A stretch of 43,096 nt of DNA from Escherichia phage SonjaBuckley_Bas74. Both the position numbers and the translations under genes were made by a program. Every line of letters begins with the position of its first letter. The first letter of the stretch is position 1. The notes under the pieces were generated by a model, which searched no databases, was not told the origin of the DNA, and saw only the letters and a program-made list of their open reading frames with translations. The stretch is from sequence record PQ850627.1, one strand, 5' to 3'. Shown piece by piece: positions 5,112 to 41,054 of this stretch.

Positions 5112-5138
5112 TTTTCACCTCCTGTTTAAGTTAACTGA

Positions 5139-5167
5139 ATAGTACCCTATTATATTGGGGTGTGCAA
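5139..5167 (-). promoter_or_regulatory. sigma70-type promoter TTGCAC-N17-TACTAT for moron 4908-5111
   Basis: Minus-strand reading TTGCACACCCCAATATAATAGGGTACTAT; 31-bp core identical to copy at 13662-13692. Confidence 0.55.
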
Positions 5168-5218: not shown

Positions 5219-5234
5219 AACTATTCGAATAGTT
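5219..5234. promoter_or_regulatory. perfect 16-bp palindrome AACTATTCGAATAGTT (operator candidate) abutting TTGACT
   Basis: Exact inverted repeat; half-site ACTATTC recurs in several promoters of this genome; overlaps a TTGACT -35-like hexamer at 5233-5238. Confidence 0.45.
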
Positions 5235-5441
5235 GACTTTTCACTAAAAATATGATAAGCTCCACCTGAGCTTGTGAAGTATGAACAAGCGACCGCGGCG
5301 CGGGCAGGTAACGGAGCGGGACGTAAGTCCTGAGTGCAGTTACGCTGACGCGTTCGGAAGGGCCATACTCTATTGCTTGTGTAAAAAGTAACTGGTTTAC
5401 TGAGATTACGCCGTTTCTATGTTTAAATGATAAGGACTAGC

Positions 5442-12275: not shown

Positions 12276-13402
12276 CCCAGCATCTCCGGTGAAATAGTTA
12301 AACGTGCGACCTCGCCATATTCGGCGCTATAAGTAATTACGTTTGCGCTACGCCCAGACATCCATCCGCCGCGCGAGGCGTAGGCGTCTTTCGCCGCTAA
12401 GGTGCGGTGTTGCTCAACAATCATGTTACGGCTTTCTACAATCTTCTGGTGGTGCAGATGGCCTACGTGGGCGTAGCTGTAAACACTCTCGCCGAACGCT
12501 TTACGGAACTTGGCAATCATAACCGGTTCGATAGCGTCGAATCGTGCTTTATGCCCGTGATGGAAGAACAGCGTCGTTTTGCCGTGTTGCACCATCTTAT
12601 AAACATCCGGCGACGTATCGACGAATACACGAGGCTCGTTGTCGTACAGTGTGCTGAACATCTCCGCCAGCCAAATCATTCCGCTTTCGTCGTGGTTCCC
12701 TTGCACTATAAGCAAGCGAACATTTTTATGCTTAACCAGTGCCATATCTACAACACGGCGCACCATACGAATCATGTAGCGAACAAGTTTTTGGTAGCGA
12801 GTGTCCGCGTCAAGGGCGTGACCGCTTGCTGGCGTAACGGCAACCAGACTATCGAAGTGCGCGAAGTCACCTAACAGGTTAATAACTCCAGTTCCTGCAT
12901 CCGGTGCTTTCTGAAACGCCGCGTCGAACCAGCGGGAGAACAGGTCTTCCGCAATCTTCATGTCCCAGTCGTCGCCGCTCTCGTCGGCCCAGGCCAGCAT
13001 ACCGAGATGAAAATCAGATACCGTGTAAAGATTGAGTAGCTTGCCGTCGCGTTTGGCGCGTGCTGCTTTAACAGGGGCGACTGGTGTAATCTCTGATTTC
13101 ATTCCTTCGATTACGGCTTTCATCAACTCGACCTGACGTTCGGCATCGGTGTCTGTCTTAACCCATTGCAACTTAGTGTTGCCGAACTCGTCCACAAGTG
13201 ACGACGTTCCTTTAATCTTGTAGCCATCTGGCACAAGGTGACTAACGTCACGTCCGTGGCCTACGCCTTTCTTAGCCAGCTTCGCTTTACGGATACGAAT
13301 AACGCGGTCTGAGATGCCGTATTTACGGGCGATGTCTACATTCTTCATCCCGGCGTTCAATTCTTCCTGTAACTGTTCGTCGGTTATTTTCTTCTGGGCC
13401 AT
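12272..13402 (-). CDS. metallophosphoesterase (calcineurin/Mre11-SbcD-like) with N-terminal HTH
   Basis: Motifs SDFHLG, LLGDFAHFD, VQGNHDE, FFHHGHKA, VGHLHH match the phosphoesterase motif series; N-terminal KNVDIARKYGISDRVIRIRKAKL is HTH-like; GAGGAAG SD. Confidence 0.65.
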   Translation of the reverse strand: MAQKKITDEQLQEELNAGMKNVDIARKYGISDRVIRIRKAKLAKKGVGHGRDVSHLVPDGYKIKGTSSLVDEFGNTKLQWVKTDTDAERQVELMKAVIEGMKSEITPVAPVKAARAKRDGKLLNLYTVSDFHLGMLAWADESGDDWDMKIAEDLFSRWFDAAFQKAPDAGTGVINLLGDFAHFDSLVAVTPASGHALDADTRYQKLVRYMIRMVRRVVDMALVKHKNVRLLIVQGNHDESGMIWLAEMFSTLYDNEPRVFVDTSPDVYKMVQHGKTTLFFHHGHKARFDAIEPVMIAKFRKAFGESVYSYAHVGHLHHQKIVESRNMIVEQHRTLAAKDAYASRGGWMSGRSANVITYSAEYGEVARLTISPEMLG

Positions 13403-13441: not shown

Positions 13442-13633
13442 TCACTTCTCGTTAACATTCGAGTTGCAGGCCCAGATTAAAATAAATACCCACGGCAGCA
13501 GAACCCAACCAAGAAACAGATTAGCCATGAATATCGCTAATTTCGCTTTATGGTTGCGGAAGTATGCAACCAAGAAAGGTGCGAAATAGGCGAGCAGTGC
13601 AAACAGAATTAAGGAAACTGGTAAACTTGACAT
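13442..13633 (-). CDS. superinfection immunity-like small membrane protein
   Basis: Likely start at second ATG (AAGGGG SD); sequence YFAPFLVAYFRNHKAKLAIFMANLFLGWVLLPWVFILIWA resembles the Imm superinfection-immunity family pattern; two predicted TMDs. Confidence 0.55.
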   Translation of the reverse strand: MSSLPVSLILFALLAYFAPFLVAYFRNHKAKLAIFMANLFLGWVLLPWVFILIWACNSNVNEK

Positions 13634-13663
13634 TTTAAACCCCTTCATTGTTGGTGTAAGCGA

Positions 13664-13692
13664 ATAGTACCCTATTATATTGGGGTGTGCAA
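13664..13692 (-). promoter_or_regulatory. sigma70-type promoter TTGCAC-N17-TACTAT for Imm-phosphoesterase moron operon
   Basis: Identical 31-bp sequence to 5137-5167; located 16 nt upstream of ORF start at 13648. Confidence 0.55.
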
Positions 13693-25466: not shown

Positions 25467-26253
25467 TTACGGCCCCTATGAACGCCTTTATAAATTCAGC
25501 GGCTACTTGCGGGACGATAGCATTGCCGTAACCGCGCAATCGTCCCACTCTGGCGGGTACCCCATTAGCCAGCGGGAATGCGCCGGGTTCAACTGGCCTG
25601 AATTTTCCATCCCGGCATCCGAGCCAGTCAGCATCTGACCAGAACCCGTTAGGCGGATTGGCTGTGTCAGAGATGCCTCTGTTTGCAGATTGTGGCCCCC
25701 GTTCCTGCCCTGATGGCCTGCTCCCGCCGAGTTGTTCGCACACGGTGTTGGCCAGTTGCTGCGCTCCGAAGAACAATCGATTCCTTTTGTGCGGTGCGCC
25801 GACGCTACAAGCTGGGAGTACGGCAAACCCGACGGCGTAGTCTTCTCTTTCCAGGTGAGTTTGTAAATCGCACATCCACGATTTTGCAATTGCTGCCGCA
25901 ACCTGCTCCCCAAAGATGACTGGAGGGTGGCACTCGCTGATGAGGTCGAGGAGCACAGGTGCGAGGTGTCTCTGGTCGAACTGTCCGAGTTGCTTTCCTG
26001 CCGTGCTAAACGGTTGGCAAGGCGGACTTCCCGTCCATATAGGCGTATCTTCAGAAACTCCCGCAAGTCTGAGCGCGAGAGGCCAGCCGCCGATACCCGC
26101 GAAAAAATGACACTGGGTGAACCCGTCAAGGTCTTCTGGCTTAACTTCGGTAATGCTTCTTTCATCTACAACTCCAAAAGGTATGTGACCCTGTTTTATC
26201 AACTCACGCAGCCACGCGGCTGCGCCTTTATCCCATTCGTTGTAATAGTTCAT
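25459..26253 (-). CDS. DNA (cytosine-5)-methyltransferase, short form
   Basis: FAGIGG (motif I), PPCQPFS (catalytic PCQ motif IV), [16 protein letters not shown]; only 264 aa. Confidence 0.6.
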
Positions 26254-26441
26254 TTCGCCACCAGAACTAACTCTTTACGCCCGAACGCCGTAACGTTACC
26301 GGTTACGTCTTCAATAACCAGTTTACCGTTCGACTCGACGAACACCGTATCAACGGCAACAGGACGACGGGTCTTAACGTTGAAAATCATGTCGCCTGGT
26401 ACGATGTCACGTGCTGGTTTGCGGTCATATTCGTGTTTCAT
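26250..26441 (-). CDS. hypothetical protein (63 aa)
   Basis: ATG with AAGGAA SD; preceded by TTGACA-N17-TATAGT promoter; ATGA coupling to methyltransferase. Confidence 0.5.
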   Translation of the reverse strand: MKHEYDRKPARDIVPGDMIFNVKTRRPVAVDTVFVESNGKLVIEDVTGNVTAFGRKELVLVAK

Positions 26442-26757
26442 TTCTAAATTCCTTATATTGTTGGGGTATGTGCTTACTATAATAGTCTGCTATTAGGGTG
26501 TCAATCTGTTTTATCGAACCAACGACAAAAACATTTGCGCCACGTTTACGTATACGCTCGTGTTCCCGTAGCTGGTGCGGGTCTGGCTTAGTGTTTTCGT
26601 CTTTCTTCACCTCGACGAACCAGACGATGCCGCCGGGTAGAATTGCCAGCAGGTCAGGAGCGCCTGAACGTCCTTCGTAGGAAAGTTTACGAACGAGGCC
26701 ACCAATGGCCTCGAATCGCTCTTTTGCGTATTTCTGGATGCGGCCCTCTTTAGTCAT
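26425..26757 (-). CDS. VRR-NUC domain nuclease
   Basis: GAPDLLAIL...VWFVEVKK...HQLREHERIRKRGANVFVV matches the VRR-NUC pattern (PD-(D/E)XK-type core). Confidence 0.6.
   Translation of the reverse strand: MTKEGRIQKYAKERFEAIGGLVRKLSYEGRSGAPDLLAILPGGIVWFVEVKKDENTKPDPHQLREHERIRKRGANVFVVGSIKQIDTLIADYYSKHIPQQYKEFRNETRI
26476..26504 (-). promoter_or_regulatory. promoter TTGACA-N17-TATAGT (internal to 3' end of VRR-NUC gene)
   Basis: Minus-strand reading TTGACACCCTAATAGCAGACTATTATAGT; perfect -35, near-consensus -10, 17-bp spacer. Confidence 0.5.
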
Positions 26758-26906
26758 GACCGCAGCATCCAGGTAAGGAAAACCCAGCCTAGAATGGCAA
26801 CACCGGCAAACTGAAAGAACAGGCCGTAACAGAACATAGCAGCTATTCCCGCACCGAGTAACAGTGCGAGCATGGTTACTATGGTCCTAAATACAAACAT
26901 TGTCAT
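26754..26906 (-). CDS. small hydrophobic membrane protein (50 aa)
   Basis: Uninterrupted frame; stop overlaps VRR-NUC start (ATGA); sequence almost entirely hydrophobic. Confidence 0.4.
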   Translation of the reverse strand: MTMFVFRTIVTMLALLLGAGIAAMFCYGLFFQFAGVAILGWVFLTWMLRS

Positions 26907-26988
26907 AATACGCACCCCTCACGTTTCGTATGCTCAATCCCGCAGCGCGGGCAGATTCGGCAGTCTTCTTCATAAAACCAGTAAATTT

Positions 26989-27120
26989 TCATTCCAGCAC
27001 CCACATATAAATTGCGATGAACATGCCCAATATGGCAACCATCATGCCGTATTGTCCCTCGTGACAGTAGACACCGGCGGCAAATCCCGCCAGTACCGCG
27101 ATAATCAGTTTACTTGGCAT
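26989..27120 (-). CDS. small hydrophobic membrane protein (43 aa)
   Basis: ATG with AAGGAGA SD; two hydrophobic segments. Confidence 0.4.
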   Translation of the reverse strand: MPSKLIIAVLAGFAAGVYCHEGQYGMMVAILGMFIAIYMWVLE

Positions 27121-27805
27121 CTCTACATTCTCCTTCAGGCCACCTATTAGGAAAAGACGGTATATGTGAAACTTCTCTCGCCGCTTTTATTCTTTTAATG
27201 GTGGGACCTATCTCCGTAACCATTTCAATGAATGTAAACCGGTGTCCTCTGGTAAGATTACATGTCTGACAACAAGAAACGCAGTTAGATACTATGTGCC
27301 CGCTTGTATTATCTATGCGGTCTACCCCGACTTTTGTAGTGCTTCCGCAATAATGGCATGGCTGTGATATTAGTTTAATAACGCTTTCCAGTGTTAAATC
27401 GCAGATAAGCCCTTTTCCTGAATCTGCTCTTTTGTATCCTAACAAAAGCGCGTACGCCCGCGTCCTTTGGTCCTTATTCACCAGTTCCCTGCGTTGCTTG
27501 TTGAGACACTCCCGGCAATCTTTCCTGATATGAGAGCCATTACTTTTATTTCCTTTCCTGAAGTTTTCCTCTGTTAAAGGTTTTACCTCCCCACACTTTC
27601 TGCATTTAACAGGCTTCCCAGTGAAAACATACCAAGGGCTTTCTCGTCTGGATTTACCTTGTAATTTAAGTTTTTCGTCATACTTTTCCTTCCTGTTAGC
27701 ATTTACACACTCTTTACACCAGCGTTGCAGCCCGAGGCGCGTTGACTTTGAAAAATACTCTGTAGTCGCCGGTTTATCTTCGCCGCATCTTGAACACTTT
27801 TTCAT
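27110..27805 (-). CDS. HNH homing-type endonuclease
   Basis: Cys pairs CSRCG, CKEC, CRKCG, CREC plus CHYCG...GVDRIDN...H core; ATG at 27805 with GGAG SD (ORF track TTG start at 27817); inserted between polymerase terminator and nuclease genes. Confidence 0.7.
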   Translation of the reverse strand: MKKCSRCGEDKPATTEYFSKSTRLGLQRWCKECVNANRKEKYDEKLKLQGKSRRESPWYVFTGKPVKCRKCGEVKPLTEENFRKGNKSNGSHIRKDCRECLNKQRRELVNKDQRTRAYALLLGYKRADSGKGLICDLTLESVIKLISQPCHYCGSTTKVGVDRIDNTSGHIVSNCVSCCQTCNLTRGHRFTFIEMVTEIGPTIKRIKAAREVSHIPSFPNRWPEGECRDAK

Positions 27806-27815
27806 TAATAACTCC

Positions 27816-27850
27816 AAAAAAAAATACCGACATAGCCATTATATCGGTAT
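27816..27850 (-). terminator. intrinsic terminator after DNA polymerase gene (minus strand)
   Basis: ATACCGA/TCGGTAT stem followed on the minus strand by a run of nine T. Confidence 0.7.
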
Positions 27851-27882
27851 TTACATTTTCTACAACGTATTTCCTAAATCTA

Positions 27883-30063
27883 CTACTTGGCGTATCTGTA
27901 CATTTCGCTACCTTCTGCTACAAGAGGGAACCCCTCCGCCCATTCCGGTAATTCACACATCAACCGCTCAAGCTCTGCAACATTGTATTCCGGTAAATCA
28001 GGTGTCTCGCAGATAATCTCATCGTGTACGTGAAGTACAATCGGGTAGCCGTTTGCTTCTACGTTCAGCAGGGCATTAGCCAGCAAATCACGGCACAATG
28101 CCTGAGTGCAGTTTTCCACCAGTTTACCCGAGTAGGTGTACTGGAACCCCCACTGACGGGTTAGCTGATTTTCGCCCTGGTACTTAATGCGCACGTTAGT
28201 AGACACTTTTCCATCTTCGTCTGTTTCTTTCGACACGCTCAACCCGACGCCCGGATAAGACATAACGCGACCCGACGGCAACGTCATGCGCAACCACCAG
28301 CCGGCGACTTTGTTGCCGTTGTTGTCTGTCTCTACGTTGCGCGAAAACTTAACCCCCCTAGGCCCCGCGGTGAACTCTTTACCTGGATTGCGGATAGCGG
28401 CCATAGCTGCGTCTTCAATATCTCGCCAGAAAGCTACTGTTTCAGGGTGTGACTCTCGCCACATACGCTTGATAGCGTCACAGGTACGCCACACTTTCTT
28501 ATCAAGAATATACGATGGTCGGTCATCCTTCTCCCCGGGTCGCGGCGGTCGCTTGGCTTCCTGAATACGTGCCCATTCATAGCCGCGTGCAGTAGCCGCC
28601 CAGATGTGGTCCGGGAAAGTACCGTCCATTGTTTTTGACATATCAACAAGGTCAAGTCCGAGGTTCTTAGCAAACTGAACGAAAGCGCCAACACCACCAG
28701 CGTAGCCGAGGCCAAGCTCGCAGGCTTTACCAATCTGGCGCAAGTCTTTGCGTTCCTTCTTAATGTAATCCGGCTCCATGCCGAACATCTTACCCGCGGT
28801 TACACAGTAAATGTCCAGCCCGGCGCGGAACGTATCTAGCGCGGTTTCTTCGCCTGCCAGCCACGCAAGCCCCCGACCTTCAACGTTAGAGTAATCGGCG
28901 ACGACAAACTTTTTTCCGGCTTCCGGGATAATGCAGCTACGCACCGTCGATGCCGTTAGCTTAGCGACATCGAAACGGCGATGCGCGCGGCCCTTAAGTA
29001 ACGCTGAAATACCTTTATCCAGTTCATCATCGTGATAGTACCCACGCGCGAGGTTCTGCGGCTGAAATCCTTTACCGGCAAATCGTAATGTACGCTTGGC
29101 TCCGCCGTACTGAATGCAACCACGACGGCGGTCGTCCGACGAGCGCCCTAACAGCAGCGGGTTATATTTCGTTGACGCTGTGGACGCGGCCCCGAGGCGC
29201 ATTTCGATAATCGTGCGTGCGTCGTCCGGTAAATCATCATCCGCCAACAGGTCGTTAAGCGTAGACTTCTGCGCGTTGTGGATGCGGTGCGCTGGTGCAA
29301 GTTCACGCAGAATCGGCAGGAAGTCTTTACCAGTAAGCGAGCCGCCGTATTTGCGCTGTGCTTCTTCCTGTAGCTGGGCCTTGTGTTTTTCCACGGCTTC
29401 AATCGCGGCTTCCGCCAGCGTCACATCAACCTTAAACCCACGGTCGTTAATCAACTGGTCCAGTTCCAGTACACGGTCTTCGAACTCGGAGTTACCCCAA
29501 CGCGGCAGCTTATGGAAGACTTCACGCATCGCAGTGATGTCGCTCACGGCGTACCTGATGAACATCGCCCACTCGTCAGGGTGAGTTTCTGCGGTGTAGC
29601 GGCGGATTTTGTAGTTCTTCGGCGTCGGTTTAGAGAAACGCTTAATCAGAGCCTTGCCGCGTTTATCTTTCGCGTTGTCTGCAGACACGCCCAGCACTTC
29701 GCACAGCGCATCAAGAGAACCCGGCAGCGCGTGACGGAACGCCCAAATCATAGTATCAATGGTGTTACTTACCGGAATATCAAAGTCCCAGCAGTGTTTC
29801 ATGATTAGGCGATCGAAAAGTCCACCGTTGTGCCACACCATCTTGATGCGGCTGTTGGGCTTAACAAGGCGGCGCAGTGCGCGGTGTAAATCCCCCGGCA
29901 TGTCGCTGCCGTCGGTGCAATCCCATACCCGCACAGGTTCGTCGTCAAAAGCATATGTACAGATAAGCACTTCGGTTGACGGGTGTTCGGCGTAAGCGTA
30001 AGAACCGACTTTCTTCAAATCGGCTTCTGAGAATGTTTCAAAGTCTAAGAACAGGTAACTCAT
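27883..30063 (-). CDS. DNA polymerase I family (family A) with N-terminal 3'-5' exonuclease domain
   Basis: N-terminal FLDFETFS exonuclease motif; C-terminal RQIGKACELGLGYAGG and VLHVHDEIICE polymerase motifs; 726 aa. Confidence 0.85.
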   Translation of the reverse strand: MSYLFLDFETFSEADLKKVGSYAYAEHPSTEVLICTYAFDDEPVRVWDCTDGSDMPGDLHRALRRLVKPNSRIKMVWHNGGLFDRLIMKHCWDFDIPVSNTIDTMIWAFRHALPGSLDALCEVLGVSADNAKDKRGKALIKRFSKPTPKNYKIRRYTAETHPDEWAMFIRYAVSDITAMREVFHKLPRWGNSEFEDRVLELDQLINDRGFKVDVTLAEAAIEAVEKHKAQLQEEAQRKYGGSLTGKDFLPILRELAPAHRIHNAQKSTLNDLLADDDLPDDARTIIEMRLGAASTASTKYNPLLLGRSSDDRRRGCIQYGGAKRTLRFAGKGFQPQNLARGYYHDDELDKGISALLKGRAHRRFDVAKLTASTVRSCIIPEAGKKFVVADYSNVEGRGLAWLAGEETALDTFRAGLDIYCVTAGKMFGMEPDYIKKERKDLRQIGKACELGLGYAGGVGAFVQFAKNLGLDLVDMSKTMDGTFPDHIWAATARGYEWARIQEAKRPPRPGEKDDRPSYILDKKVWRTCDAIKRMWRESHPETVAFWRDIEDAAMAAIRNPGKEFTAGPRGVKFSRNVETDNNGNKVAGWWLRMTLPSGRVMSYPGVGLSVSKETDEDGKVSTNVRIKYQGENQLTRQWGFQYTYSGKLVENCTQALCRDLLANALLNVEANGYPIVLHVHDEIICETPDLPEYNVAELERLMCELPEWAEGFPLVAEGSEMYRYAK

Positions 30064-30077
30064 TATTTTTGACCCCT

Positions 30078-30108
30078 AGTAAAAAGGCCCAATGAAGGGC
30101 CTTAGTTA
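30078..30108 (-). terminator. intrinsic terminator after SSB gene (minus strand)
   Basis: AAGGCCC-N6-GGGCCTT hairpin followed on the minus strand by TTTTT. Confidence 0.65.
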
Positions 30109-30122
30109 AATTGATTCAGATA

Positions 30123-30749
30123 TTAGCGGCGGCGACGTTCGCGGCGCGGTGCTTCATCTTCTTCGTCGTCTTCCAGGTCATTGACGCTCGCAGCGACTTT
30201 AGAACCGCCGAACGCTTTGCCTTCGCCAACGTATTTAATCGCCAGCAGGTTAACGCCGAGGACTTTGTATTTCTGGCTGAACCAGATTTCAACGCTTACG
30301 TTAGCTAAGCATCCGCTGTAAACCTGTTCACCTTCAATCTGTTCGCCGTCTACGTTGAAGTCCTGCTCTACCTGAGTCTCACCTTTTTTAGAGGTTACAA
30401 TCAGCGGCTGTTTCTGTGCCTTCGCTTTGAAGTAGAAGCCTTCCGGGAAGTCTTCAAACGGATTGTCGCGCTCGGCAATGTCTTTAATCGCGCATTTATC
30501 CATGTGCTTACCTTCACCGTAGTTGGACTTCATCCATTTCTCGGCAGCGGCTGCGCCTAACGCTTCTTCAACTACAGCGTAAACGGTGTCGTAGAGTGCA
30601 TCGATTTGAGCATGGTCAGACGGCAGGATGATAGTCGCGCTGTACTGGCCTTTAGTGATTGAGCCATCATCGTTTTCACGGTCTTTTTCACGTTCAAATA
30701 CGTTAACCCAAGCAGTGTTTACTTTACGCAGATTCAGTTTAATACCCAT
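30123..30749 (-). CDS. single-stranded DNA-binding protein (DUF2815-like) with acidic C-terminal tail
   Basis: 208 aa; C-terminus DLEDDEEDEAPRRERRRR; located between DUF2800-like nuclease and polymerase; own promoter and terminator. Confidence 0.55.
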   Translation of the reverse strand: MGIKLNLRKVNTAWVNVFEREKDRENDDGSITKGQYSATIILPSDHAQIDALYDTVYAVVEEALGAAAAEKWMKSNYGEGKHMDKCAIKDIAERDNPFEDFPEGFYFKAKAQKQPLIVTSKKGETQVEQDFNVDGEQIEGEQVYSGCLANVSVEIWFSQKYKVLGVNLLAIKYVGEGKAFGGSKVAASVNDLEDDEEDEAPRRERRRR

Positions 30750-30808
30750 CTTAATTTCTCGCTTTTAAGTTTCGTTTACTCCGGGAAGCTGCCCGGTCAG
30801 TGATTAGA

Positions 30809-30837
30809 ACTATAATAGCTAACTATTCAGGTGTCAA
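30809..30837 (-). promoter_or_regulatory. promoter TTGACA-N17-TATAGT upstream of SSB gene
   Basis: Minus-strand reading TTGACACCTGAATAGTTAGCTATTATAGT; spacer contains AATAG-N5-CTATT inverted repeat. Confidence 0.55.
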
Positions 30838-31026
30838 ATAAAATTTCGCAATACGGACTATGTTCTCGAAATCATTCATATCAACGGGTTCGAATTCATC
30901 CTCCACATGGTTGTATCGCACCATCGTGCCGTTCAGGAACGTAAACGATTCCGAATGGATATAACCGCCCCAGCGCCATATCATCACAAAATCTTTATCT
31001 GTGGGCATTTCATTTACTTGAATCAT
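30823..31026 (-). CDS. hypothetical protein (67 aa)
   Basis: ATG at 31026 with GAGGAGGA SD, overlapping stop of upstream nuclease (ATGA). Confidence 0.45.
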   Translation of the reverse strand: MIQVNEMPTDKDFVMIWRWGGYIHSESFTFLNGTMVRYNHVEDEFEPVDMNDFENIVRIAKFYLTPE

Positions 31027-32264
31027 TCCAAATCCTCCTCTGTTACCTGATTCCACTCAGGACGTTTGTCGTCTGCCGTTGCGACACATGGTGCGCCTGG
31101 CTTACGGGTAATGAAGTCTTTCAGTTCTTCTTCCGGTATGACTTTAACAGCTTCGGTAGGTGACATGAGCACTTCTTTAGTCAGCTTGTCGCCGTAGAGT
31201 TCTGTTACTTTCTCCGCGTCTTTCCATGCACGATTACCCGGGCGGCCTTCAACCAACTTGTAACCATGAACTTTCTTACCTGAATGCAACGCGGCCGCCA
31301 TAGCTTTCTCAACCTTGTCGATGTGCTGGCGCAACAGCGGCAACTTCTCATACTCAGCTACGAGTTGCTCCGGCGTCAGTTCCAGCACAAAGTCGTCTTC
31401 CAGTTCTTCCGCCAGTACAGAATTAACCGTCTTTGTACGCGCAGCGCATTGTTCAGAGAACCGGCACCACTGACAACCATCTACCGATGGCTTGAAGTCC
31501 GACGCTTTCAGGTTCTTCTTGCCACGGAAATACGCATCAAGCGCTAACAGCGCGCGTTTCTGTGCGAACTTAGCGAACAGTTCCAGTCCTTCAACCGGGA
31601 TGTCCCACTCTGTCGCGCCCCCAGCGTAAGGCTGGAAGATGACCAGACGAACGGTTGTTATGTTATAACGTCTCTTGAGTCGACGATAAACACCGAGAGC
31701 GTAAAGCATAAGCTGCTTGTTTTCTTTCGCTTCGACGCGATGCCGCCCGGTTTTCAGGTCGCCGATAATGAGCATGTGCTCGTCGGTGTTTGCCAGTTCC
31801 TGGACAGCAACGAGGTCAGCGGTTCCGAACGTCTCAACGCCTTCATACCCCGGATGCAATACCTCAGTAAGATTGACACGCATTTCCAGCTTGGCGTAAG
31901 TCGCTACGTCTATAATCGCTTTGCAGTAGTCGGTGTACTTGCGCACCTGCTCAATCATGTCCGCCGTAATCAGTACCGCGCCTTTCATCGGGCTGATTAG
32001 CGCCTTAATCTGACCTTTGCCTTCATCCAGTACGTAAGCGCCGACTTCACGCTCCAACGGCAACGCAGTGCCGCGTATATAGGCGTTGAGATGGACCTCA
32101 GCTATGGTGTGCATGGCGGTCCCCGTAACGGCAGCTTTACCTGACGTGTTAGGAATATCTTTTTCACAGGCCAGTGATGCACTGCACGTCAGCCACTTCT
32201 TAGCACCTGACGGCGACAATAAGGCGTGCACATCATTATTGCCACCGCGTTCTTTTAGAATCAT
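31023..32264 (-). CDS. PD-(D/E)XK nuclease, Cas4/RecB-like (DUF2800-like)
   Basis: N-terminal LLSPSGAKKWLTCSAS; C-terminal cysteines CQWCRFSEQC typical of Cas4-like Fe-S nucleases; start likely ATG at 32264 (GGGAGA SD), ORF track GTG at 32279. Confidence 0.6.
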   Translation of the reverse strand: MILKERGGNNDVHALLSPSGAKKWLTCSASLACEKDIPNTSGKAAVTGTAMHTIAEVHLNAYIRGTALPLEREVGAYVLDEGKGQIKALISPMKGAVLITADMIEQVRKYTDYCKAIIDVATYAKLEMRVNLTEVLHPGYEGVETFGTADLVAVQELANTDEHMLIIGDLKTGRHRVEAKENKQLMLYALGVYRRLKRRYNITTVRLVIFQPYAGGATEWDIPVEGLELFAKFAQKRALLALDAYFRGKKNLKASDFKPSVDGCQWCRFSEQCAARTKTVNSVLAEELEDDFVLELTPEQLVAEYEKLPLLRQHIDKVEKAMAAALHSGKKVHGYKLVEGRPGNRAWKDAEKVTELYGDKLTKEVLMSPTEAVKVIPEEELKDFITRKPGAPCVATADDKRPEWNQVTEEDLE

Positions 32265-32533
32265 GCTCTGTTCTCCCACTGGTCAATTAAATGCCGTGTC
32301 TTGTGGTCGCAATGTAAGGCCCATCCATACATCGACTCGAAGACATAAAAGTCAGGCTTGGCGAAAGTTGTGCGCTTAATCTGTGACACGTGACGGCCTA
32401 TATCTTTAGGCCGTGGTACTTTTCCTAAGTACGCCATCTCTTCCATCTGGTGCGCACCGGACGGAGCACGCAATAGCCATAGCGCCTCTGTGTTATCCCG
32501 CCTGTCGACGGCTCGGTAGAGTTGGTAAATCAT
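32261..32533 (-). CDS. hypothetical protein (90 aa)
   Basis: ATG start; ATGA coupling to downstream nuclease gene. Confidence 0.5.
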   Translation of the reverse strand: MIYQLYRAVDRRDNTEALWLLRAPSGAHQMEEMAYLGKVPRPKDIGRHVSQIKRTTFAKPDFYVFESMYGWALHCDHKTRHLIDQWENRA

Positions 32534-32576
32534 AATTCCGACCCTCAGTTAAAGCGGCCCGAAGGCCGCGAGATAG

Positions 32577-33077
32577 TTATTCTTCTTCGAAATACTTGTT
32601 CTTGATTGCTGTCAGGCGTTCCAGGTATTCAGCCAGGTCTTCGTCTTTAATCGCTGCAATCTTCATTTTCTTACCTGTGAACTCTTCCAGCAGTTCATCA
32701 GAATCATCGCACGCGGCATCGCTCGGACCTTCGTTAATTGCATCGTCGATAGCCTGAATCTGGTCGCGCAGAGACTTATAGTCTACTTCTTCTTTCTCTT
32801 CTTCCGGCTCTGGCGTCGTTTCCTCTACTTTAGCTTTACGCGGCTTGCGTTTTGGCTTCTCTTCCTCCGCCGGTTTAGTGTCAACTACGTCTTCACCTTC
32901 AACCGGGATTTCTTTTGTTGCTTCTTCAGCGCACTCAGCTACCGCTTCTTTGGTGTACGATACCGTCTCTACTTCCAGCGGCGTGGCAACCTGAACAACT
33001 TGTTTCGCACTGTTCGCGGCAATCAGTTCGTGCGCAACTACGAAACGTTCCAGTAATACTAAGAATTTCTCTAACAT
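32577..33077 (-). CDS. highly acidic hypothetical protein, first gene of minus-strand early operon
   Basis: GAGGAGAG SD; 166 aa with long D/E-rich segments and a short basic patch KPKRKPRKAK; immediately downstream of TTGACA-N17-TATAGT promoter. Confidence 0.5.
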   Translation of the reverse strand: MLEKFLVLLERFVVAHELIAANSAKQVVQVATPLEVETVSYTKEAVAECAEEATKEIPVEGEDVVDTKPAEEEKPKRKPRKAKVEETTPEPEEEKEEVDYKSLRDQIQAIDDAINEGPSDAACDDSDELLEEFTGKKMKIAAIKDEDLAEYLERLTAIKNKYFEEE

Positions 33078-33108
33078 TTGTTTCTCTCCTCTCGTTTGGT
33101 ATGGGCTA

Positions 33109-33137
33109 ACTATAATAGCGAACTATTCACATGTCAA
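33109..33137 (-). promoter_or_regulatory. promoter TTGACA-N17-TATAGT for minus-strand early operon
   Basis: Minus-strand reading TTGACATGTGAATAGTTCGCTATTATAGT; differs at three positions from the 30809-30837 copy. Confidence 0.55.
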
Positions 33138-33176
33138 TGGGCTTTTCTAAAATAATTAATATGGTACTATTCACAT
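33122..33176 (+). promoter_or_regulatory. pair of 11-bp direct repeats ACTATTCACAT spaced 44 bp (operator candidates) with weak plus promoter for HTH gene
   Basis: Exact repeats at 33122-33132 and 33166-33176; second copy overlaps TACTAT -10-like hexamer 32 nt upstream of the regulator ATG. Confidence 0.4.
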
Positions 33177-33201
33177 ATCAACTGACTAAGGAGTAATTGA
33201 C

Positions 33202-33417
33202 ATGCAACCATCTGAACTAGGCATCCGTGTAGAACAACGCCGCAAAGAACTCGGCATCTCCCAGCGCCGTTTGGCGGCCCTGACCGGCGTTTCCCAGGGC
33301 GCGATTAACCAACTGGCACTTGGAGTAACTCAGGACGTCCGCCCGGCAACGCTGTTCAAACTGGCGGAAGTTCTGGAAGTAGACGCCAAGTGGCTGGCGT
33401 TAGGTGAAGGGGCTTAA
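33202..33417 (+). CDS. XRE/Cro-type helix-turn-helix transcriptional regulator
   Basis: 71 aa; LGISQRRLAALTGVSQGAINQL is a classic HTH; AAGGAG SD; lone plus-strand gene convergent with primase, followed by terminator. Confidence 0.7.
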   Translation: MQPSELGIRVEQRRKELGISQRRLAALTGVSQGAINQLALGVTQDVRPATLFKLAEVLEVDAKWLALGEGA

Positions 33418-33431
33418 AGCCCCTTTCTTTT
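33409..33431 (+). terminator. intrinsic terminator after HTH regulator gene
   Basis: GGGGC-TTAAA-GCCCC followed by TTTCTTTTT. Confidence 0.6.
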
Positions 33432-33434
33432 TAC

Positions 33435-35657
33435 CTATTCCAAATCCTCCTCTGTCACCACCAGCATCTCATTTGGTTCGTATAGTGTCTTCGGCCTTAA
33501 TCTATCCCCTATTCTTTCGGGTATACGATATGTTCTCGGTACTACTTCGCCGTTAGCATCGCAACCAAGCATTAGTTCTCCATCTTTCAACATTTTATCA
33601 AGATGGGTGTTAGTCACAGAGAAGTCACCGGAACGAGCCACTATCTGCTGCTGAGTAAAACCGCGACCTGTGTCATCTGACTGTTGCAGGTCTTCCAGTG
33701 CCGAAAGTATTGACTCCTTCCTTACTTCATCCCTGCCGCGTTTAACTTCTTCCTTTACTTTTTGCTTACCTTCTTTCGTCAACCCTTCTTCCCGCTCTTT
33801 CTCCTCGTCAGTTTTGAACGGCTCGAAACCCCACGGCATCAACACAAGCGCCTTGTGTGGTTCAGGAAGGTCCAGGTTTACGATTGTGCCGTATTCTTCT
33901 GTGCCCCCCAGGAACTCAACCGCACGGTACTCTTTCGGCGGCGGAGCTTCGCGGAACTGCACAGACTCCAGCACCATGCCAACCGTTTTCTGTTGAGGAC
34001 CGTGCTTAAATTTCGAGTGGTATACGTTTATTTGACGGTCGGTTGCACGTTCGATTGTCAGTTCCACGTCAACACCCGCATACAGCGCCCCACTGCCGCG
34101 TGCTTTCTTTCCACCCTTCGGCGTATGGTGGACAACGCCTACTGCGGCTTTAGTTGCATCGCGTACTTCTTTCAGAATGGCGATAACTTTACCCATGCCG
34201 ATTGCTGTTGATGAACTGTTCTCGTCGAACTTATCAATCGTCAGTGCCAGGGTCTGGTTAAGGGTGTCGAACGCAACCATGCCAATTGGCTCGTCGCCAG
34301 CAGTTTCGCGCATTAACTTAATCAGGCTTTTAAGTTTGCCGACTTCGCCCATATCGATGACGTGTACATAATCTTTACCTTCCCCGCCATATTTAGCCGC
34401 TAGTGCATCAATACGGGTGCGTGTAGCTGCGCCACCCTCACCATCAATATAGAAATGGTGGCAACGCTGGGTATCCGCCCCCGCAAACCTGTACCCGGCG
34501 GCGCTGAGGTACATCATCCCCAGCGTATAGAACGATTTGTACGTGCCAGATTCCCCGACGATATCCCAGATACAATCCGACGGCATGTACCCCTCAACGA
34601 CGAAATCAGCCTTTACCGGCTCCGGTAACTCGTCCTCCTCTGAGTCCTCGTCGTCTTCCAGGTCGTCGAGGCTGCAAGTTACTGGGTCCTCGTTCTCTGT
34701 GCGGTGTAGTTCTTCAATCTCTTCTTCCGGTAAATCAGGCAGAGCCGCACGAATGCTGTTAATGCTGATAGGTTGCTTATCTATGTTAAGCTCGTCGGGT
34801 AGGCCACACATACGCAGGGCCAAATGCTGCCTACGGTTAAGCTCGGTGCAAGCGCCGTTGTTTGTATGCTGGCAGACAAAGCGCACTTCTTTACCGTCGA
34901 GCATTATGCTGGTGGAGCCCTTGCCTGTATGCAGATGTTCGTTAGGGCATGGCACTTCGTACCCGCGCCCGGAAGATAAAGCGTCAAGGCCAAGCTCGGC
35001 TTCGCAGAAGTGTGCTATATCCGCGTTAAGCCCATGCTCATCAGCGGCAAGTGTTTTAGCCTCACGCTTACGCAACCCCATCTCTTCGGCTTTCTTGATG
35101 TACCGCTCAGCACGGATAACACGCCCTTCTGTAACCGTTATCTTCGACTCTTTATGCGGCAGGTAGATAAGGCGGTTGCCGTCTTCTGTGCAGTGGTCGC
35201 GCAACGCTTCGTCTATTTCTAACTCTGCACAAATAGCACGTTGCACCATCCACGCGTCGTTAGAGTTAAACGGCGTGCGAGCTGGAACCAGAACGCGGAA
35301 AGCGTAATCTCCATTTTTACATGCGTGCTGATGCGATGCCGTTGTGTGCAGAATATTGAAGAACGGCGCGTTCTTGAATTTGCGTGTCAGGTCGCGGTAC
35401 TGAGTACGGTTGAGATGGTCGAAATCGAACTTAACCACACTGTCTTCCAGGATAGCGTTTTTACGGCGACCACCAACAGGCGCAATAGCTTTCTGTTTAA
35501 TCTTGGCAGCGTCGTACTCTTCCTTAGTCCATGACGGGTCCACGGATAAACGCTTCGATGTATCGCAGACATACTCGACAAACTGCTCCAGCGGCATTTC
35601 ACGCGCTACAGGGTTTTTATCGAATGTGTTACGCAGCGTTGCAAAAACAATATTCAT
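33435..35657 (-). CDS. DNA primase-helicase (primase domain plus RecA-like ATPase)
   Basis: 740 aa; Walker A GESGTYKS; N-terminal region with Cys/His cluster; synteny with PolA, SSB and nuclease genes. Confidence 0.6.
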   Translation of the reverse strand: MNIVFATLRNTFDKNPVAREMPLEQFVEYVCDTSKRLSVDPSWTKEEYDAAKIKQKAIAPVGGRRKNAILEDSVVKFDFDHLNRTQYRDLTRKFKNAPFFNILHTTASHQHACKNGDYAFRVLVPARTPFNSNDAWMVQRAICAELEIDEALRDHCTEDGNRLIYLPHKESKITVTEGRVIRAERYIKKAEEMGLRKREAKTLAADEHGLNADIAHFCEAELGLDALSSGRGYEVPCPNEHLHTGKGSTSIMLDGKEVRFVCQHTNNGACTELNRRQHLALRMCGLPDELNIDKQPISINSIRAALPDLPEEEIEELHRTENEDPVTCSLDDLEDDEDSEEDELPEPVKADFVVEGYMPSDCIWDIVGESGTYKSFYTLGMMYLSAAGYRFAGADTQRCHHFYIDGEGGAATRTRIDALAAKYGGEGKDYVHVIDMGEVGKLKSLIKLMRETAGDEPIGMVAFDTLNQTLALTIDKFDENSSSTAIGMGKVIAILKEVRDATKAAVGVVHHTPKGGKKARGSGALYAGVDVELTIERATDRQINVYHSKFKHGPQQKTVGMVLESVQFREAPPPKEYRAVEFLGGTEEYGTIVNLDLPEPHKALVLMPWGFEPFKTDEEKEREEGLTKEGKQKVKEEVKRGRDEVRKESILSALEDLQQSDDTGRGFTQQQIVARSGDFSVTNTHLDKMLKDGELMLGCDANGEVVPRTYRIPERIGDRLRPKTLYEPNEMLVVTEEDLE

Positions 35658-35851: not shown

Positions 35852-36142
35852 TTACCGTTTAGCCAACCCTTCCAGCAAATTTTTATACTCTTCAAAATAT
35901 TCCTCGACCAAATCATCGCCGAAATAGAAGTCGATATACTCGAGATTATCTCTTACGTTAAGCGATGCCGACATGGTGCTTAGTTGGCGTAAGCTAATTA
36001 GCTTCATTTCTGTTTCTACGCAGAAAGGCCGGTAGGTATCAAGATGGCAAGAGATATTGAAGCATAAAGCGAACTCTCCGGCCACGGAGTGAACCATATA
36101 CACTTCGTTTTCTGCTTTATTGTGGAAAATTACGCCTTTCAT
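35852..36142 (-). CDS. hypothetical protein (96 aa)
   Basis: ATG with AAGGAGA SD; ATGA coupling to upstream HTH gene. Confidence 0.5.
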   Translation of the reverse strand: MKGVIFHNKAENEVYMVHSVAGEFALCFNISCHLDTYRPFCVETEMKLISLRQLSTMSASLNVRDNLEYIDFYFGDDLVEEYFEEYKNLLEGLAKR

Positions 36143-36321
36143 TTCACGTTCTCCTTAATCCATGCTTCGACTTTATTACGGTCAAATGTTCCCGGTAAAC
36201 GGCGGCCCATAACCTTAATACAGCAGTCAGGGAATTTGCCGCTGCGCAACCAGTTATTAATGGTCTGACGTGTCACCCCGATACGCTCGGCTACCTCATT
36301 CTGTGTCATGTAATGTTGCAT
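36139..36321 (-). CDS. AlpA/excisionase-type HTH DNA-binding protein
   Basis: Likely ATG start at 36321 with AGGGGAT SD (ORF track GTG at 36435); MTQNEVAERIGVTRQTINNWLRSGKFP matches the HTH_17 pattern; first gene downstream of TTGCTT-N17-TATACT promoter. Confidence 0.55.
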   Translation of the reverse strand: MQHYMTQNEVAERIGVTRQTINNWLRSGKFPDCCIKVMGRRLPGTFDRNKVEAWIKENVK

Positions 36322-36418: not shown

Positions 36419-36448
36419 TTGAAAGTTCTTGACACATGTTTGTATAAT
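36419..36448 (+). promoter_or_regulatory. promoter TTGAAA-N18-TATAAT driving a non-coding transcript
   Basis: Consensus -10 TATAAT at 36443-36448; divergent from the minus promoter at 36353-36381. Confidence 0.45.
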
Positions 36449-36455
36449 GGTTTTG

Positions 36456-36675
36456 GGACTTGTATATATTACGGAGTTGACGAACCCTCCCCGAGGGATT
36501 CGTCAACCCCTCCCAGACAGCTGAGATGCTTGCCTTGTGGTTTAAGGATAAGTGTATCTAAATCTCATTTAAAGAAGTAACCCGCTGAAATATCTACTGT
36601 TTCTTAATGTGCCGTAGATTCGCAACCGTAAAAATGTAACGATTATTGGGCAGGCTTAGGGCCTGCCCTTTAGTT
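36456..36675 (+). ncRNA. candidate small non-coding RNA (about 220 nt)
   Basis: Promoter upstream, strong 5' hairpin at 36476-36507, intrinsic terminator at 36648-36675, no ORF with SD (only an 11-codon ATG frame). Confidence 0.3.
36648..36675 (+). terminator. intrinsic terminator closing the candidate sRNA
   Basis: GGGCAGGC-TTAGG-GCCTGCCC followed by TTTAGTT. Confidence 0.6.
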
Positions 36676-36740: not shown

Positions 36741-36769
36741 TTGCACACCCCAACATAATAGGATACTAT
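36741..36769 (+). promoter_or_regulatory. sigma70-type promoter TTGCAC-N17-TACTAT for plus-strand small-gene cluster
   Basis: TTGCACACCCCAACATAATAGGATACTAT; 29 of 31 positions identical to the moron promoter repeat. Confidence 0.55.
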
Positions 36770-36803
36770 TCACTTATCGAAACGAGACAGAGGAGTGAAG
36801 GTT

Positions 36804-38179: not shown

Positions 38180-38208
38180 TTGCACACTGTGATAGAATAG
38201 GCTACTAT
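38180..38208 (+). promoter_or_regulatory. sigma70-type promoter TTGCAC-N17-TACTAT
   Basis: TTGCACACTGTGATAGAATAGGCTACTAT followed by leader ACAAACGAGAGGAGAG and ATG at 38240. Confidence 0.5.
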
Positions 38209-38239
38209 TCATTTACACAAACGAGAGGAGAGACAGAAG

Positions 38240-41003: not shown

Positions 41004-41025
41004 ATCTATTTTCTGCAATGACTAG

Positions 41026-41054
41026 TTGACTATTACCTACGACCCTATTATATT
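41026..41054 (+). promoter_or_regulatory. promoter TTGACT-N17-TATATA after endolysin terminator
   Basis: TTGACTATTACCTACGACCCTATTATATA followed by leader CAACGAGAACGGAG and ATG at 41088. Confidence 0.45.

What the first reader, a model, noticed from the sequence alone, without database searches (positions are those of the whole stretch)
26476..33137. Second promoter family TTGACA-N17-TATAGT with an embedded AATAG-N5-CTATT inverted repeat, found three times in the replication block
On the minus strand, 26476-26504, 30809-30837 and 33109-33137 all read TTGACA, then a 17-bp spacer containing GAATAGT...CTAT, then TATAGT. The 30809 and 33109 copies differ at only three positions. The embedded dyad lying between -35 and -10 is the classic position for a repressor operator. 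One copy is inside the 3' end of the VRR-NUC coding sequence, which suggests an internal promoter.
Basis: seen in the sequence. Interest (0 to 1): 0.55.

Follow-up and report, generated by a model that had tools for sequence, protein, structure and literature searches.

The report
Repressor-controlled promoters in a lytic coliphage
Three near-perfect bacterial promoters in the replication genes of a Kagunavirus coliphage each carry a conserved 14-base symmetric protein-binding site, which is most likely the operator of a small phage-encoded Cro-like repressor; this is an ordinary, partly already noticed kind of phage gene switch.

Summary
The three sites exist exactly where stated. All read TTGACA-N17-TATAGT on the minus strand (0.22 expected by chance). 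The embedded dyad is AATAG-N4-CTATT, not N5.

The window is a Kagunavirus (Guernseyvirinae), about 96% identical to phage Bas73.

The dyad is not special to this promoter family. It occurs 7 times exactly (0.04 expected). It is in the spacer of the three family-2 promoters and over the -10 of four TTGCAC-N17-TACTAT promoters. One-mismatch copies lie at the XRE gene's own promoter and over the -35 of two plus-strand promoters.

Across about 45 related phages, the -35, the -10 and both dyad arms are nearly invariant. The 4-base centre and the -35-to-dyad linker vary freely.

The most likely binder is the 71-aa XRE protein at 33202-33417. Its closest solved relatives are 434 Cro and 434 repressor, which use 14-bp operators. 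The AlpA-like protein cannot be excluded.

The repeat was already published as a PHIRE "phage promoter" motif, and two of the sites are annotated as promoters in phage Jersey. No transcript or binding data exist. This is a new member of a known kind, of modest interest.

The parts
26476..26504 (-). Family-2 promoter 1 (TTGACA-N17-TATAGT). It lies inside the last ~26 codons of the VRR-NUC ORF and drives the 63-aa gene (ATG 26441), the methyltransferase and the helicase.
   Evidence: orthologue annotated as a promoter in Jersey and as a PHIRE motif in fBC-Eco01
26481..26494 (.). Operator dyad AATAG-N4-CTATT in the spacer of promoter 1 (about -25 to -12).
   Evidence: arms 43/45 and 44/45 conserved, centre has 10 variants
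30809..30837 (-). Family-2 promoter 2, upstream of the Enc34/gp2.5-like ssDNA-binding protein gene (ATG 30749). It overlaps the stop codon of ORF 30823-31056.
   Evidence: annotated as a promoter in Jersey
30814..30827 (.). Operator dyad in the spacer of promoter 2.
33109..33137 (-). Family-2 promoter 3, upstream of the 166-aa gene (ATG 33077) and divergent from the XRE gene.
   Evidence: -35 39/39, -10 38/39
33114..33127 (.). Operator dyad in the spacer of promoter 3.
   Evidence: arms 38/39 and 39/39, centre 6 variants, linker 11 variants
33158..33171 (.). One-mismatch dyad AATATGGTACTATT at the XRE gene's own promoter region. It overlaps TACTAT (33165-33170). The imperfect arm is itself conserved.
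   Evidence: the first regex match picked this copy: GAATAG 39/39, ATATT 36/39
33202..33417 (+). XRE/HTH_3 protein of 71 aa, the favoured dyad-binding repressor. It is monocistronic and ends at bidirectional terminator 33406-33427.
   Evidence: conserved in Kaguna-, Jersey- and Cornellvirus
36139..36321 (-). AlpA-like HTH_17 protein of 60 aa, the alternative candidate binder. It is the first gene of the leftward helicase-primase operon, and its own upstream region has no dyad.
5139..5167 (-). Family-1 promoter TTGCAC-N17-TACTAT with the same dyad (5138-5151) over the -10.
13664..13692 (-). Family-1 promoter with dyad 13663-13676 over the -10. It drives the superinfection-immunity-like gene and the exonuclease gene.
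36741..36769 (+). Family-1 promoter with dyad 36757-36770 over the -10.
38180..38208 (+). Family-1 promoter with dyad 38196-38209 over the -10.
41021..41054 (+). Promoter TTGACT-N17-TATATT with one-mismatch dyad ACTAG-TTGA-CTATT (41021-41034) over the -35.
5228..5241 (+). One-mismatch dyad AATAG-TTGA-CTTTT over a TTGACT -35-like hexamer, in the same register as 41021.

Best explanation
The three sites are strong host-sigma70 promoters spaced along the leftward replication/recombination gene block of a virulent Kagunavirus. Each carries a 14-bp two-fold symmetric operator, AATAG-N4-CTATT, in its spacer, at roughly -25 to -12 and touching the -10. A dimeric phage-encoded helix-turn-helix protein binds this operator and blocks RNA polymerase. 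The most likely binder is the 71-aa 434-Cro-like XRE protein encoded at 33202-33417, divergently from site 3.

The same operator lies over the -10 of four family-1 promoters. Weakened one-mismatch versions lie at the XRE gene's own promoter and over the -35 of two plus-strand promoters. One small repressor would therefore control about ten promoters through three different registers. It would probably turn non-structural transcription down as it accumulates, and it would autoregulate through its weaker site.

Shown: the sequences, their statistical excess, their positions relative to genes, and the conservation pattern. Inferred: that transcription starts here, that a protein binds, that binding represses, and that the protein is XRE.
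For: Promoter quality and uniqueness. Start codons with SD sequences lie 25-53 nt downstream.

Dyad excess: 7 exact copies against 0.038 expected. It is by far the most frequent perfect 5-bp-arm dyad in the window, in fBC-Eco01 and in Jersey.

Conservation across about 45 Kaguna/Jersey loci: arms, -35 and -10 are nearly invariant. The centre and the linker vary in sequence, and the linker also in length. This holds at all three sites and at two family-1 sites.

Arm variants are single-sided with no compensating change, as expected for protein half-sites rather than for a hairpin.

The dyad sits in three registers and both orientations relative to the core hexamers. In Cornellvirus it sits in yet another register relative to the -10. 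It is therefore an independent element, not part of a hexamer.

Cornellvirus lacks any AlpA-like homologue but keeps XRE. It still has 4-5 promoter-located 5-4-5 dyads (AWTAS-N4-STAWT) against 0.6 expected.

A more distant relative, L107, keeps the XRE/166-aa-gene synteny and the TATAGT -10 but has no AATAG dyad, and its XRE recognition helix is different.

XRE is HTH_3. Its best solved relatives are 434 Cro (also 71 aa) and 434 repressor, aligned over residues 6-68. By established knowledge these bind 14-bp operators with conserved outer bases and a variable centre.

The XRE gene is flanked by two dyads 44 bp apart, and the one at its own promoter has a conserved weakened arm.

XRE and the AlpA-like protein are the only recognisable HTH proteins among the 22 non-structural ORFs scanned.
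Against: There is no experimental evidence for transcription starts or protein binding in any relative (literature searches).

The XRE recognition helix differs between Kagunavirus (QGAINQ) and Jerseyvirus (QSLITH), at about 48% overall identity, yet both genera use the same AATAG dyad. Jersey and Cornell helices are more alike (QSLITH/QSAISH) although their dyads differ. This is the opposite of simple helix/operator covariation.

The AlpA-like protein is 80-100% conserved exactly in the two genera that share the strict AATAG dyad.

The right arm abuts the -10 in family 2, so part of its conservation could be promoter-intrinsic.

The Cornellvirus motif was defined after looking at two of its sites, so it is post hoc.
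Confidence: 0.6

Rival explanations
1. The dyad is a real operator, but its binder is the 60-aa AlpA-like HTH_17 protein (36139-36321), an early gene product acting as repressor or activator. XRE would regulate something else.
For: AlpA-like is 80-100% identical across Kagunavirus and Jerseyvirus, the two genera with the strict AATAG dyad. It is undetectable in two complete Cornellvirus genomes, whose dyads are relaxed or different. It is the first gene of the leftward operon and has no dyad in its own promoter region. In Kagunavirus K1B4 RNA-seq, an HTH-domain gene is one of only 4 early genes. Mapping that gene to AlpA-like is my inference from gene order.
Against: Cornellviruses keep promoter dyads of the same 5-4-5 geometry without any AlpA-like gene. 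Loci L010 and L028 carry an AlpA-like variant of 69.6% identity with a changed recognition helix (VTRQTINNW to VSTMTLNRW), yet their dyad arms are unchanged. By established knowledge, HTH_17/excisionase-type proteins usually bind direct repeats as monomers, not 14-bp palindromes. The family-2 promoters are near-consensus and need no activator.
Confidence: 0.15
2. No dedicated binding protein exists. The arms are conserved because they belong to an extended core promoter, or because the promoters are recent paralogous copies, and the symmetry is incidental (TATAGT and TACTAT resemble each other's reverse complement).
For: The right arm overlaps or abuts the -10 in families 1 and 2. The promoters of one family are clearly paralogous; sites 2 and 3 differ at 3 of 29 positions. 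A distant relative keeps the -35 and -10 without the dyad.
Against: The distal arm of family 2 lies at about -25 to -21, where sigma70 promoters have little sequence requirement. It is nevertheless 38/39 to 43/45 invariant at sites 1 and 3 (46/49 for the 5-bp core at site 2), while bases on both sides of it drift. The same dyad occurs over the -35, in the spacer and over the -10, and in both orientations. Paralogy cannot explain selective conservation within each orthologous site across about 45 genomes.
Confidence: 0.12
3. A host (E. coli/Salmonella) transcription factor binds the dyad.
For: Kagunavirus (E. coli) and Jerseyvirus (Salmonella) share the dyad although their XRE proteins have diverged. 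The two hosts share most transcription factors.
Against: Cornellviruses also infect Salmonella but use a different half-site. I could not recall any E. coli factor with an AATAG-N4-CTATT site; this rests on my own knowledge and was not tested.
Confidence: 0.05
4. The dyad is a loading site for a Q/AlpA-type processive antiterminator, which lets polymerase read through the terminators inside the replication block.
For: The Q-binding element of lambda and the AlpA-binding element of P. aeruginosa lie between the -35 and -10. Several terminator-like hairpins lie inside the block.
Against: P. aeruginosa AlpA binds as a monomer to an asymmetric 6-bp element. It needs an N-terminal ring domain, and its HTH is at residues about 128-142. 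The window protein is only 60 aa and is HTH only. The dyad register differs by 6 bp between families, and differs again in the third class, which is incompatible with a fixed loading geometry. No obvious -10-like pause element follows the start sites (by eye).
Confidence: 0.03

Closest known systems
Phage 434 Cro / 434 repressor with their 14-bp operators (ACAA-N6-TTGT)
   Same: The candidate binder is a 71-aa HTH_3 protein whose best solved relatives are 434 Cro (71 aa) and the 434 repressor DNA-binding domain. The operator is 14 bp and two-fold symmetric, with conserved outer bases and a variable centre. Operators overlap core promoter elements. Two operators flank the regulator gene, and the weaker one is at its own promoter.
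   Different: There is no cI partner, no integrase and no tripartite OR/OL. The phage is virulent and has no relatives in 185,579 bacterial genomes. Operators are dispersed over about ten promoters genome-wide in three registers, rather than clustered at two sites. The half-site sequence is different (AATAG).
Phage P1 C1 repressor regulon (many dispersed operators) - from my own knowledge, not tested
   Same: One phage repressor controls many promoters scattered around the genome through a short shared operator.
   Different: P1 operators are asymmetric 17-bp sites bound by a 283-aa monomeric, non-XRE repressor that maintains lysogeny. Here the site is a palindrome and the phage is lytic.
Aca-type (anti-CRISPR-associated) HTH repressors of strong early phage promoters - from my own knowledge
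   Same: A small HTH protein binds inverted repeats within a strong early promoter to damp transcription after an initial burst in a lytic infection.
   Different: Aca genes sit in the operon they repress and control one promoter. Here the XRE gene is monocistronic with its own promoter and terminator, and the operator is genome-wide.
PHIRE 'phage promoter' motif reported for Kagunavirus fBC-Eco01 (consensus tgAATAGTa-ccTATTat-T; PMC9825357) and Golestan (PMC7203180)
   Same: It is the same repeated element. The 20-mers annotated in OM272052 coincide with the dyads, including the orthologue of site 1 and the XRE promoter.
   Different: Those papers attribute the motif to a phage-encoded RNA polymerase. 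No RNA polymerase gene is annotated in these genomes. The palindromic, operator-like nature and its position inside sigma70 promoters were not described.

Membership tests
Bacterial sigma70-dependent promoter | -35 TTGACA-like and -10 TATAAT-like hexamers spaced 17 +/- 1 bp | tested here: met
   11/12 match with a 17-bp spacer at all three sites. Relatives have 17 or 18 bp.
Bacterial sigma70-dependent promoter | Correct orientation and distance to a downstream gene with a ribosome-binding site | tested here: met
   ATG at 26441, 30749 and 33077 with AAGGA, GAGAAA and GAGAGGAGAG upstream.
Bacterial sigma70-dependent promoter | Hexamers conserved in relatives | tested here: met
   Jersey record annotates two orthologues as promoters.
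Bacterial sigma70-dependent promoter | Transcription initiation observed | not testable with these tools
   No TSS data were found. The K1B4 RNA-seq paper gives gene-level timing only.
Cro/cI-type (HTH_3) repressor-operator system | Small HTH_3 DNA-binding protein encoded next to its operators | tested here: met
   PF01381 E=3.9e-13. 434 Cro and 434 repressor are the best PDB hits. Dyads lie 31 and 75 bp upstream of its ATG.
Cro/cI-type (HTH_3) repressor-operator system | Two-fold symmetric operator with conserved half-sites and a variable centre | tested here: met
Cro/cI-type (HTH_3) repressor-operator system | Operator overlaps core promoter elements so that binding occludes polymerase | tested here: met
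   Dyad at about -25..-12 (family 2), about -19..-6 (family 1), and over the -35 (third class). Occlusion itself is inferred.
Cro/cI-type (HTH_3) repressor-operator system | Recognition helix and operator half-site co-vary between lineages | tested here: inconclusive
   Kaguna and Jersey helices differ but the dyad is the same. Cornellvirus and L107 have different helices and a different or absent dyad.
Cro/cI-type (HTH_3) repressor-operator system | Direct, specific protein-DNA binding | not testable with these tools
   Needs EMSA, footprinting or ChIP.
Lambdoid immunity region (cI-OR-cro with lysogeny module) | Divergent cI and cro genes around a tripartite operator, plus integrase | tested here: not met
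   There is only one XRE gene, two dyads 44 bp apart, and no integrase or cI in annotated relatives. No prophage relatives were found.
MerR-type activator promoter | Dyad in an over-long 19-20 bp spacer of a weak promoter | tested here: not met
   Spacers are 17-18 bp and the hexamers are near-consensus.
Q / P. aeruginosa AlpA antiterminator loading site | Antiterminator with an RNAP exit-channel ring domain; asymmetric binding element; fixed register | tested here: not met
   The window AlpA-like protein is 60 aa and HTH_17 only, whereas the AlpA HTH is at residues 128-142 and its ABE is a 6-bp element bound by a monomer. The dyad register varies.
Phage-RNA-polymerase promoter (PHIRE interpretation) | Phage encodes its own RNA polymerase | tested here: not met
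   No RNAP gene is annotated in Bas73, fBC-Eco01 or Jersey.

The most novel reading that the evidence does not exclude
A strictly virulent siphovirus subfamily runs essentially its whole transcription programme through one 14-bp operator placed in three registers: over the -35, in the spacer, and over the -10. Affinity would be graded, with perfect sites at non-structural promoters and conserved one-mismatch sites at structural promoters and at the repressor's own promoter. A single 71-aa Cro-like protein would then act as a genome-wide timer. It could also act as an immunity-like factor against superinfecting relatives, or support a carrier state, without any lysogeny module.
Probability: 0.15. 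Interest if true: 0.55.

Novelty: new member of a known kind. Interest (0 to 1): 0.3.

Why it matters
Kagunavirus and Jerseyvirus phages are among the most frequently isolated E. coli and Salmonella phages proposed for therapy and biocontrol, yet nothing is known about how they time gene expression.

This analysis defines about ten operator-bearing promoters and one or two candidate regulators. That gives a directly testable circuit, using EMSA, promoter-reporter fusions and operator mutants. It also gives handles for engineering these phages.

It corrects a published attribution of the motif to a non-existent phage RNA polymerase.

Conceptually it is a familiar Cro-type repressor/operator arrangement, so the gain is in annotation and testability rather than a new principle.

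Tried and rejected
(1) AATAG-N5-CTATT as written: 0 matches. The real spacing is N4.

(2) RNA or DNA hairpin as the selected feature. The dyad lies upstream of the predicted transcription start, and arm variants are never compensated. Rejected.

(3) Bidirectional promoter. A perfect TATAAT lies on the plus strand inside ACTATAATAG, but no -35 lies at 16-18 bp upstream of it (read). Rejected.

(4) De novo approximate-repeat search in Cornellvirus VSiA. It returned only GC-rich coding noise and was uninformative. Reading the intergenic regions directly was what revealed the variant dyad.

(5) Looking for AlpA-like homologues outside Kaguna/Jersey as an outgroup test. All 442 hits are within these genera, so no test was possible.

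(6) Searching 185,579 bacterial genomes for the 166-aa neighbour protein. No relatives were found, so there is no prophage context.

(7) Rfam scan of the whole window: no family matched.

(8) Literature searches for experimental work on Guernseyvirinae transcription, operators or TSS. Only PHIRE or consensus predictions and one gene-level RNA-seq time course were found.

(9) Restriction-modification target or replication-origin iterons. Rejected because the sites are enriched, not avoided, and all sit inside promoters.

Full report
WHAT THE WINDOW IS. Region 26000-34000 is about 96% identical to Escherichia phage Bas73, and 456 phage records match. Nearly all are Kagunavirus (E. coli) or Jerseyvirus (Salmonella) of the subfamily Guernseyvirinae. 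These are about 43-kb virulent siphoviruses. In the window, structural genes run on the plus strand from 1 to about 24000. A replication/recombination block runs on the minus strand from 24042 to about 36435. Small early-type genes and the lysis genes run on the plus strand from about 36800.

THE OBSERVATION. The three stated intervals read TTGACA-N17-TATAGT on the minus strand. They are the only matches at up to 1 mismatch, against 0.22 expected. They are the best-scoring (11/12) sigma70-like sites on the minus strand of this half of the window, equalled only by one plus-strand site. The embedded inverted repeat is AATAG-N4-CTATT, not N5. The N5 pattern has no match. The N4 pattern has 7 exact matches, against a mean of 0.038 and a maximum of 1 in 500 dinucleotide shuffles. 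It is by far the commonest perfect 5-bp-arm dyad in the window, in Kagunavirus fBC-Eco01 (7 copies) and in phage Jersey (4 copies, as TAATAG-N4-CTATTA).

Site 1 lies inside the VRR-NUC ORF, where the promoter encodes IDTLIADYYS. Site 2 overlaps the end of a small conserved gene, and the TAG of the left arm is that gene's stop codon. Site 3 is intergenic. Start codons with Shine-Dalgarno sequences follow 25-53 nt downstream of the predicted starts.

THE DYAD IS SHARED BY OTHER PROMOTER FAMILIES. The four other exact dyads (5138, 13663, 36757, 38196) belong to a second promoter type, TTGCAC-N17-TACTAT. There the dyad covers the -10, at about -19 to -6. In the three family-2 sites it lies in the spacer, at about -25 to -12. 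A one-mismatch copy (33158-33171) overlaps the TACTAT of the XRE gene's own promoter region, 44 bp from the site-3 dyad. It is part of a degenerate tandem copy of the site-3 promoter. Two further one-mismatch copies (5228, 41021) overlap TTGACT -35 hexamers of plus-strand promoters. At 41021 the imperfect dyad is conserved in Kagunavirus as ACTAG-TTGA-CTATT. Jerseyvirus has the mirror arrangement, AATAG-TTGA-CTAGT. The dyad is thus an independent element that occurs in three registers and both orientations relative to the core hexamers.

COMPARATIVE TEST. I fetched 80 loci around XRE homologues from IMG/VR and five annotated genome records, four of them complete. I then aligned the orthologues of each site.
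- Site 1 (45 sequences): left arm TAATAG 43/45, right arm CTATT 44/45, centre 10 variants, linker 5 variants.
- Site 2 (49 sequences): core arms 46/49 and 48/49, centre 10 variants, linker 11 variants of 3-4 nt.
- Site 3 (39 Kagunavirus sequences): -35 39/39, arms 38/39 and 39/39, -10 38/39, centre 6 variants, linker 11 variants of 3-4 nt.
- Family-1 sites at 36757 and 38196: same pattern.
The rare arm variants are single-sided and uncompensated. This pattern is what a dimeric DNA-binding protein imposes: half-sites under constraint while the centre and flanks drift. A hairpin or plain promoter function would not impose it.

MORE DISTANT LINEAGES.
- Cornellvirus genomes have no exact AATAG dyad. 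Their promoters carry 4-5 copies of a related 5-4-5 dyad, AWTAS-N4-STAWT, against 0.6 expected. These occur in spacer-type and -10-type registers, and the -10-type register is shifted by 3-4 bp relative to Kagunavirus. This motif was defined post hoc.
- A still more distant contig, L107, keeps the helicase-primase/XRE/166-aa-gene synteny and a TTGCAA-N18-TATAGT promoter. It has no AATAG dyad, and its XRE helix is different.
So the dyad is lineage-specific, whereas the hexamers are not.

WHO BINDS. Among the 22 non-structural ORFs I scanned, only two have recognisable DNA-binding domains.

(a) The 71-aa XRE/HTH_3 protein (33202-33417). It is monocistronic on the opposite strand, between site 3 and a bidirectional terminator. 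Its best solved relatives are 434 Cro (71 aa) and the 434 repressor DNA-binding domain, aligned end to end. By established knowledge these bind 14-bp operators with conserved outer bases and a variable centre. XRE is present in all three genera and in L107. Two dyads flank its gene, and the one at its own promoter has a conserved weakened arm.

(b) The 60-aa AlpA-like HTH_17 protein (36139-36321). It is 80-100% conserved between Kaguna- and Jerseyvirus, is absent from Cornellvirus, and is restricted to these genera.

Covariation is ambiguous.
- The XRE recognition helix differs between Kaguna (QGAINQ) and Jersey (QSLITH), although the dyad is the same. This counts against XRE.
- Cornellviruses keep promoter dyads without any AlpA-like gene. 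Loci L010 and L028 have an AlpA-like variant with a changed recognition helix but unchanged dyads. Both points count against AlpA-like.
Taken together with the palindromic 14-bp geometry, I favour XRE at roughly 0.5-0.6 given that a protein binds, with AlpA-like second.

MECHANISM. Near-consensus promoters need no activator. A dimer bound at -25..-12, at -19..-6, or over the -35 would occlude RNA polymerase, as established for 434 and lambda operators and for synthetic lacO/tetO promoters. I therefore read the element as a repressor operator. The three sites would be serial, repressible promoters for the exonuclease, ssDNA-binding protein/polymerase and methylase/helicase gene groups. Perfect operators at non-structural promoters, and conserved imperfect ones at the regulator's own promoter and at two plus-strand promoters, suggest graded, time-dependent shut-off with autoregulation. 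All of this is inference.

The only transcript data are from Kagunavirus K1B4 RNA-seq. They place an HTH-domain gene among 4 early genes, and a 'specific DNA binding' gene next to the helicase-primase gene among the middle genes. Mapping these to AlpA-like and XRE respectively is my inference from gene order.

RIVALS REJECTED OR DOWN-WEIGHTED.
- MerR-type activation: spacers are 17-18 bp, not 19-20.
- Q/AlpA-type antiterminator loading: P. aeruginosa AlpA is much larger, binds an asymmetric 6-bp element as a monomer and needs a fixed geometry.
- Phage-RNAP promoter: no such polymerase is encoded.
- Host factor: Cornellviruses, which also infect Salmonella, use a different half-site.
- Purely promoter-intrinsic conservation: the distal arm lies in a region that sigma70 does not read, and the dyad changes register between families.

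PRIOR KNOWLEDGE AND NOVELTY. The fBC-Eco01 paper reported seven PHIRE repeats with the consensus tgAATAGTa-ccTATTat-T and assigned them to a phage RNA polymerase. The annotated 20-mers coincide with the dyads, including the orthologue of site 1 and the XRE promoter. Golestan likewise reported seven PHIRE promoters. The Jersey GenBank record annotates the orthologues of sites 1 and 2 as TTGACA/TATAAT-like promoters. Many records call the XRE gene 'Cro' or 'repressor'. I found no description of the element as an operator and no experimental work. The finding is therefore real, and its operator interpretation is well supported by comparative data.

Noticed in passing
window 36419-36670 (+): A strong sigma70-like promoter, TTGAAA-N18-TATAAT (36419-36448), is followed by about 215 nt with no credible ORF and by an intrinsic terminator (36648-36668). 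The transcript folds unusually well (z = -4.07) and matches no Rfam family. This is a candidate phage small RNA between the AlpA-like gene and the rightward early genes. Jersey annotates a promoter at the equivalent place.
   Followed up: partly
window 30781-30796 (-): The 5' UTR of the ssDNA-binding protein gene, downstream of site 2, contains the hairpin CCGGGCAGCTTCCCGG. The surrounding CACTGGCCGGGCAG is conserved even in Cornellvirus. It may be a translational or stability element.
   Followed up: no
window 5228-5241 and 41021-41054 (+): This is a third register of the same dyad. One-mismatch copies overlap TTGACT -35 hexamers of plus-strand promoters. At 41021 Kagunavirus has ACTAG-TTGA-CTATT, while Jerseyvirus has the mirror-image imperfection AATAG-TTGA-CTAGT.
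   Followed up: partly
L004, L005, L053-L056 (Cornellvirus loci): The promoters carry a related but relaxed 5-4-5 dyad, AWTAS-N4-STAWT (for example ATTAG-TTTA-GTATT and AATAC-TCAG-CTAAT). There are 4-5 copies per genome against 0.6 expected. These genomes lack any AlpA-like homologue.
   Followed up: partly
window 33152-33181 (-): A degenerate tandem copy of the site-3 promoter, TTGATATGTGAATAGTACCATATTAATTAT, lies 44 bp upstream of site 3. It supplies the imperfect dyad at the XRE promoter. The -35 of a possible XRE promoter (TTCACA, 33126-33131) abuts the -35 of site 3 (33132-33137), so the two promoters are back to back.
   Followed up: partly
window 26425-26481 (-): In most relatives the VRR-NUC ORF stops at a TAG immediately after the -10 (TAT AGT TAG). 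In the window and a minority of relatives this reads TAT AGT AAG. The ORF then runs 16 codons further and overlaps the start of the next gene.
   Followed up: partly
window 33202-33417: The XRE gene has 57.9% G+C, against 50.6% for the window and 50.3% for the replication block. This could indicate separate origin or codon bias.
   Followed up: no
window 32577-33077 (-): The 166-aa acidic protein of unknown function (phrog_3127), the first gene downstream of site 3, is conserved across all three genera and L107. It has no detectable relative in 185,579 bacterial and archaeal genomes, consistent with a strictly virulent lineage.
   Followed up: partly
window 13442-13648 and 12272-13402 (-): A family-1 promoter embedded in the tail-gene module drives a superinfection-immunity-like protein (PF14373) and an SbcD/Mre11-like exonuclease, on the strand opposite to the structural genes.
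   Followed up: no
literature: PMC9825357: The fBC-Eco01 paper assigns the dyad-containing repeats to 'the phage-encoded RNA polymerase'. Neither that genome's annotation nor its relatives list an RNA polymerase gene.
   Followed up: yes
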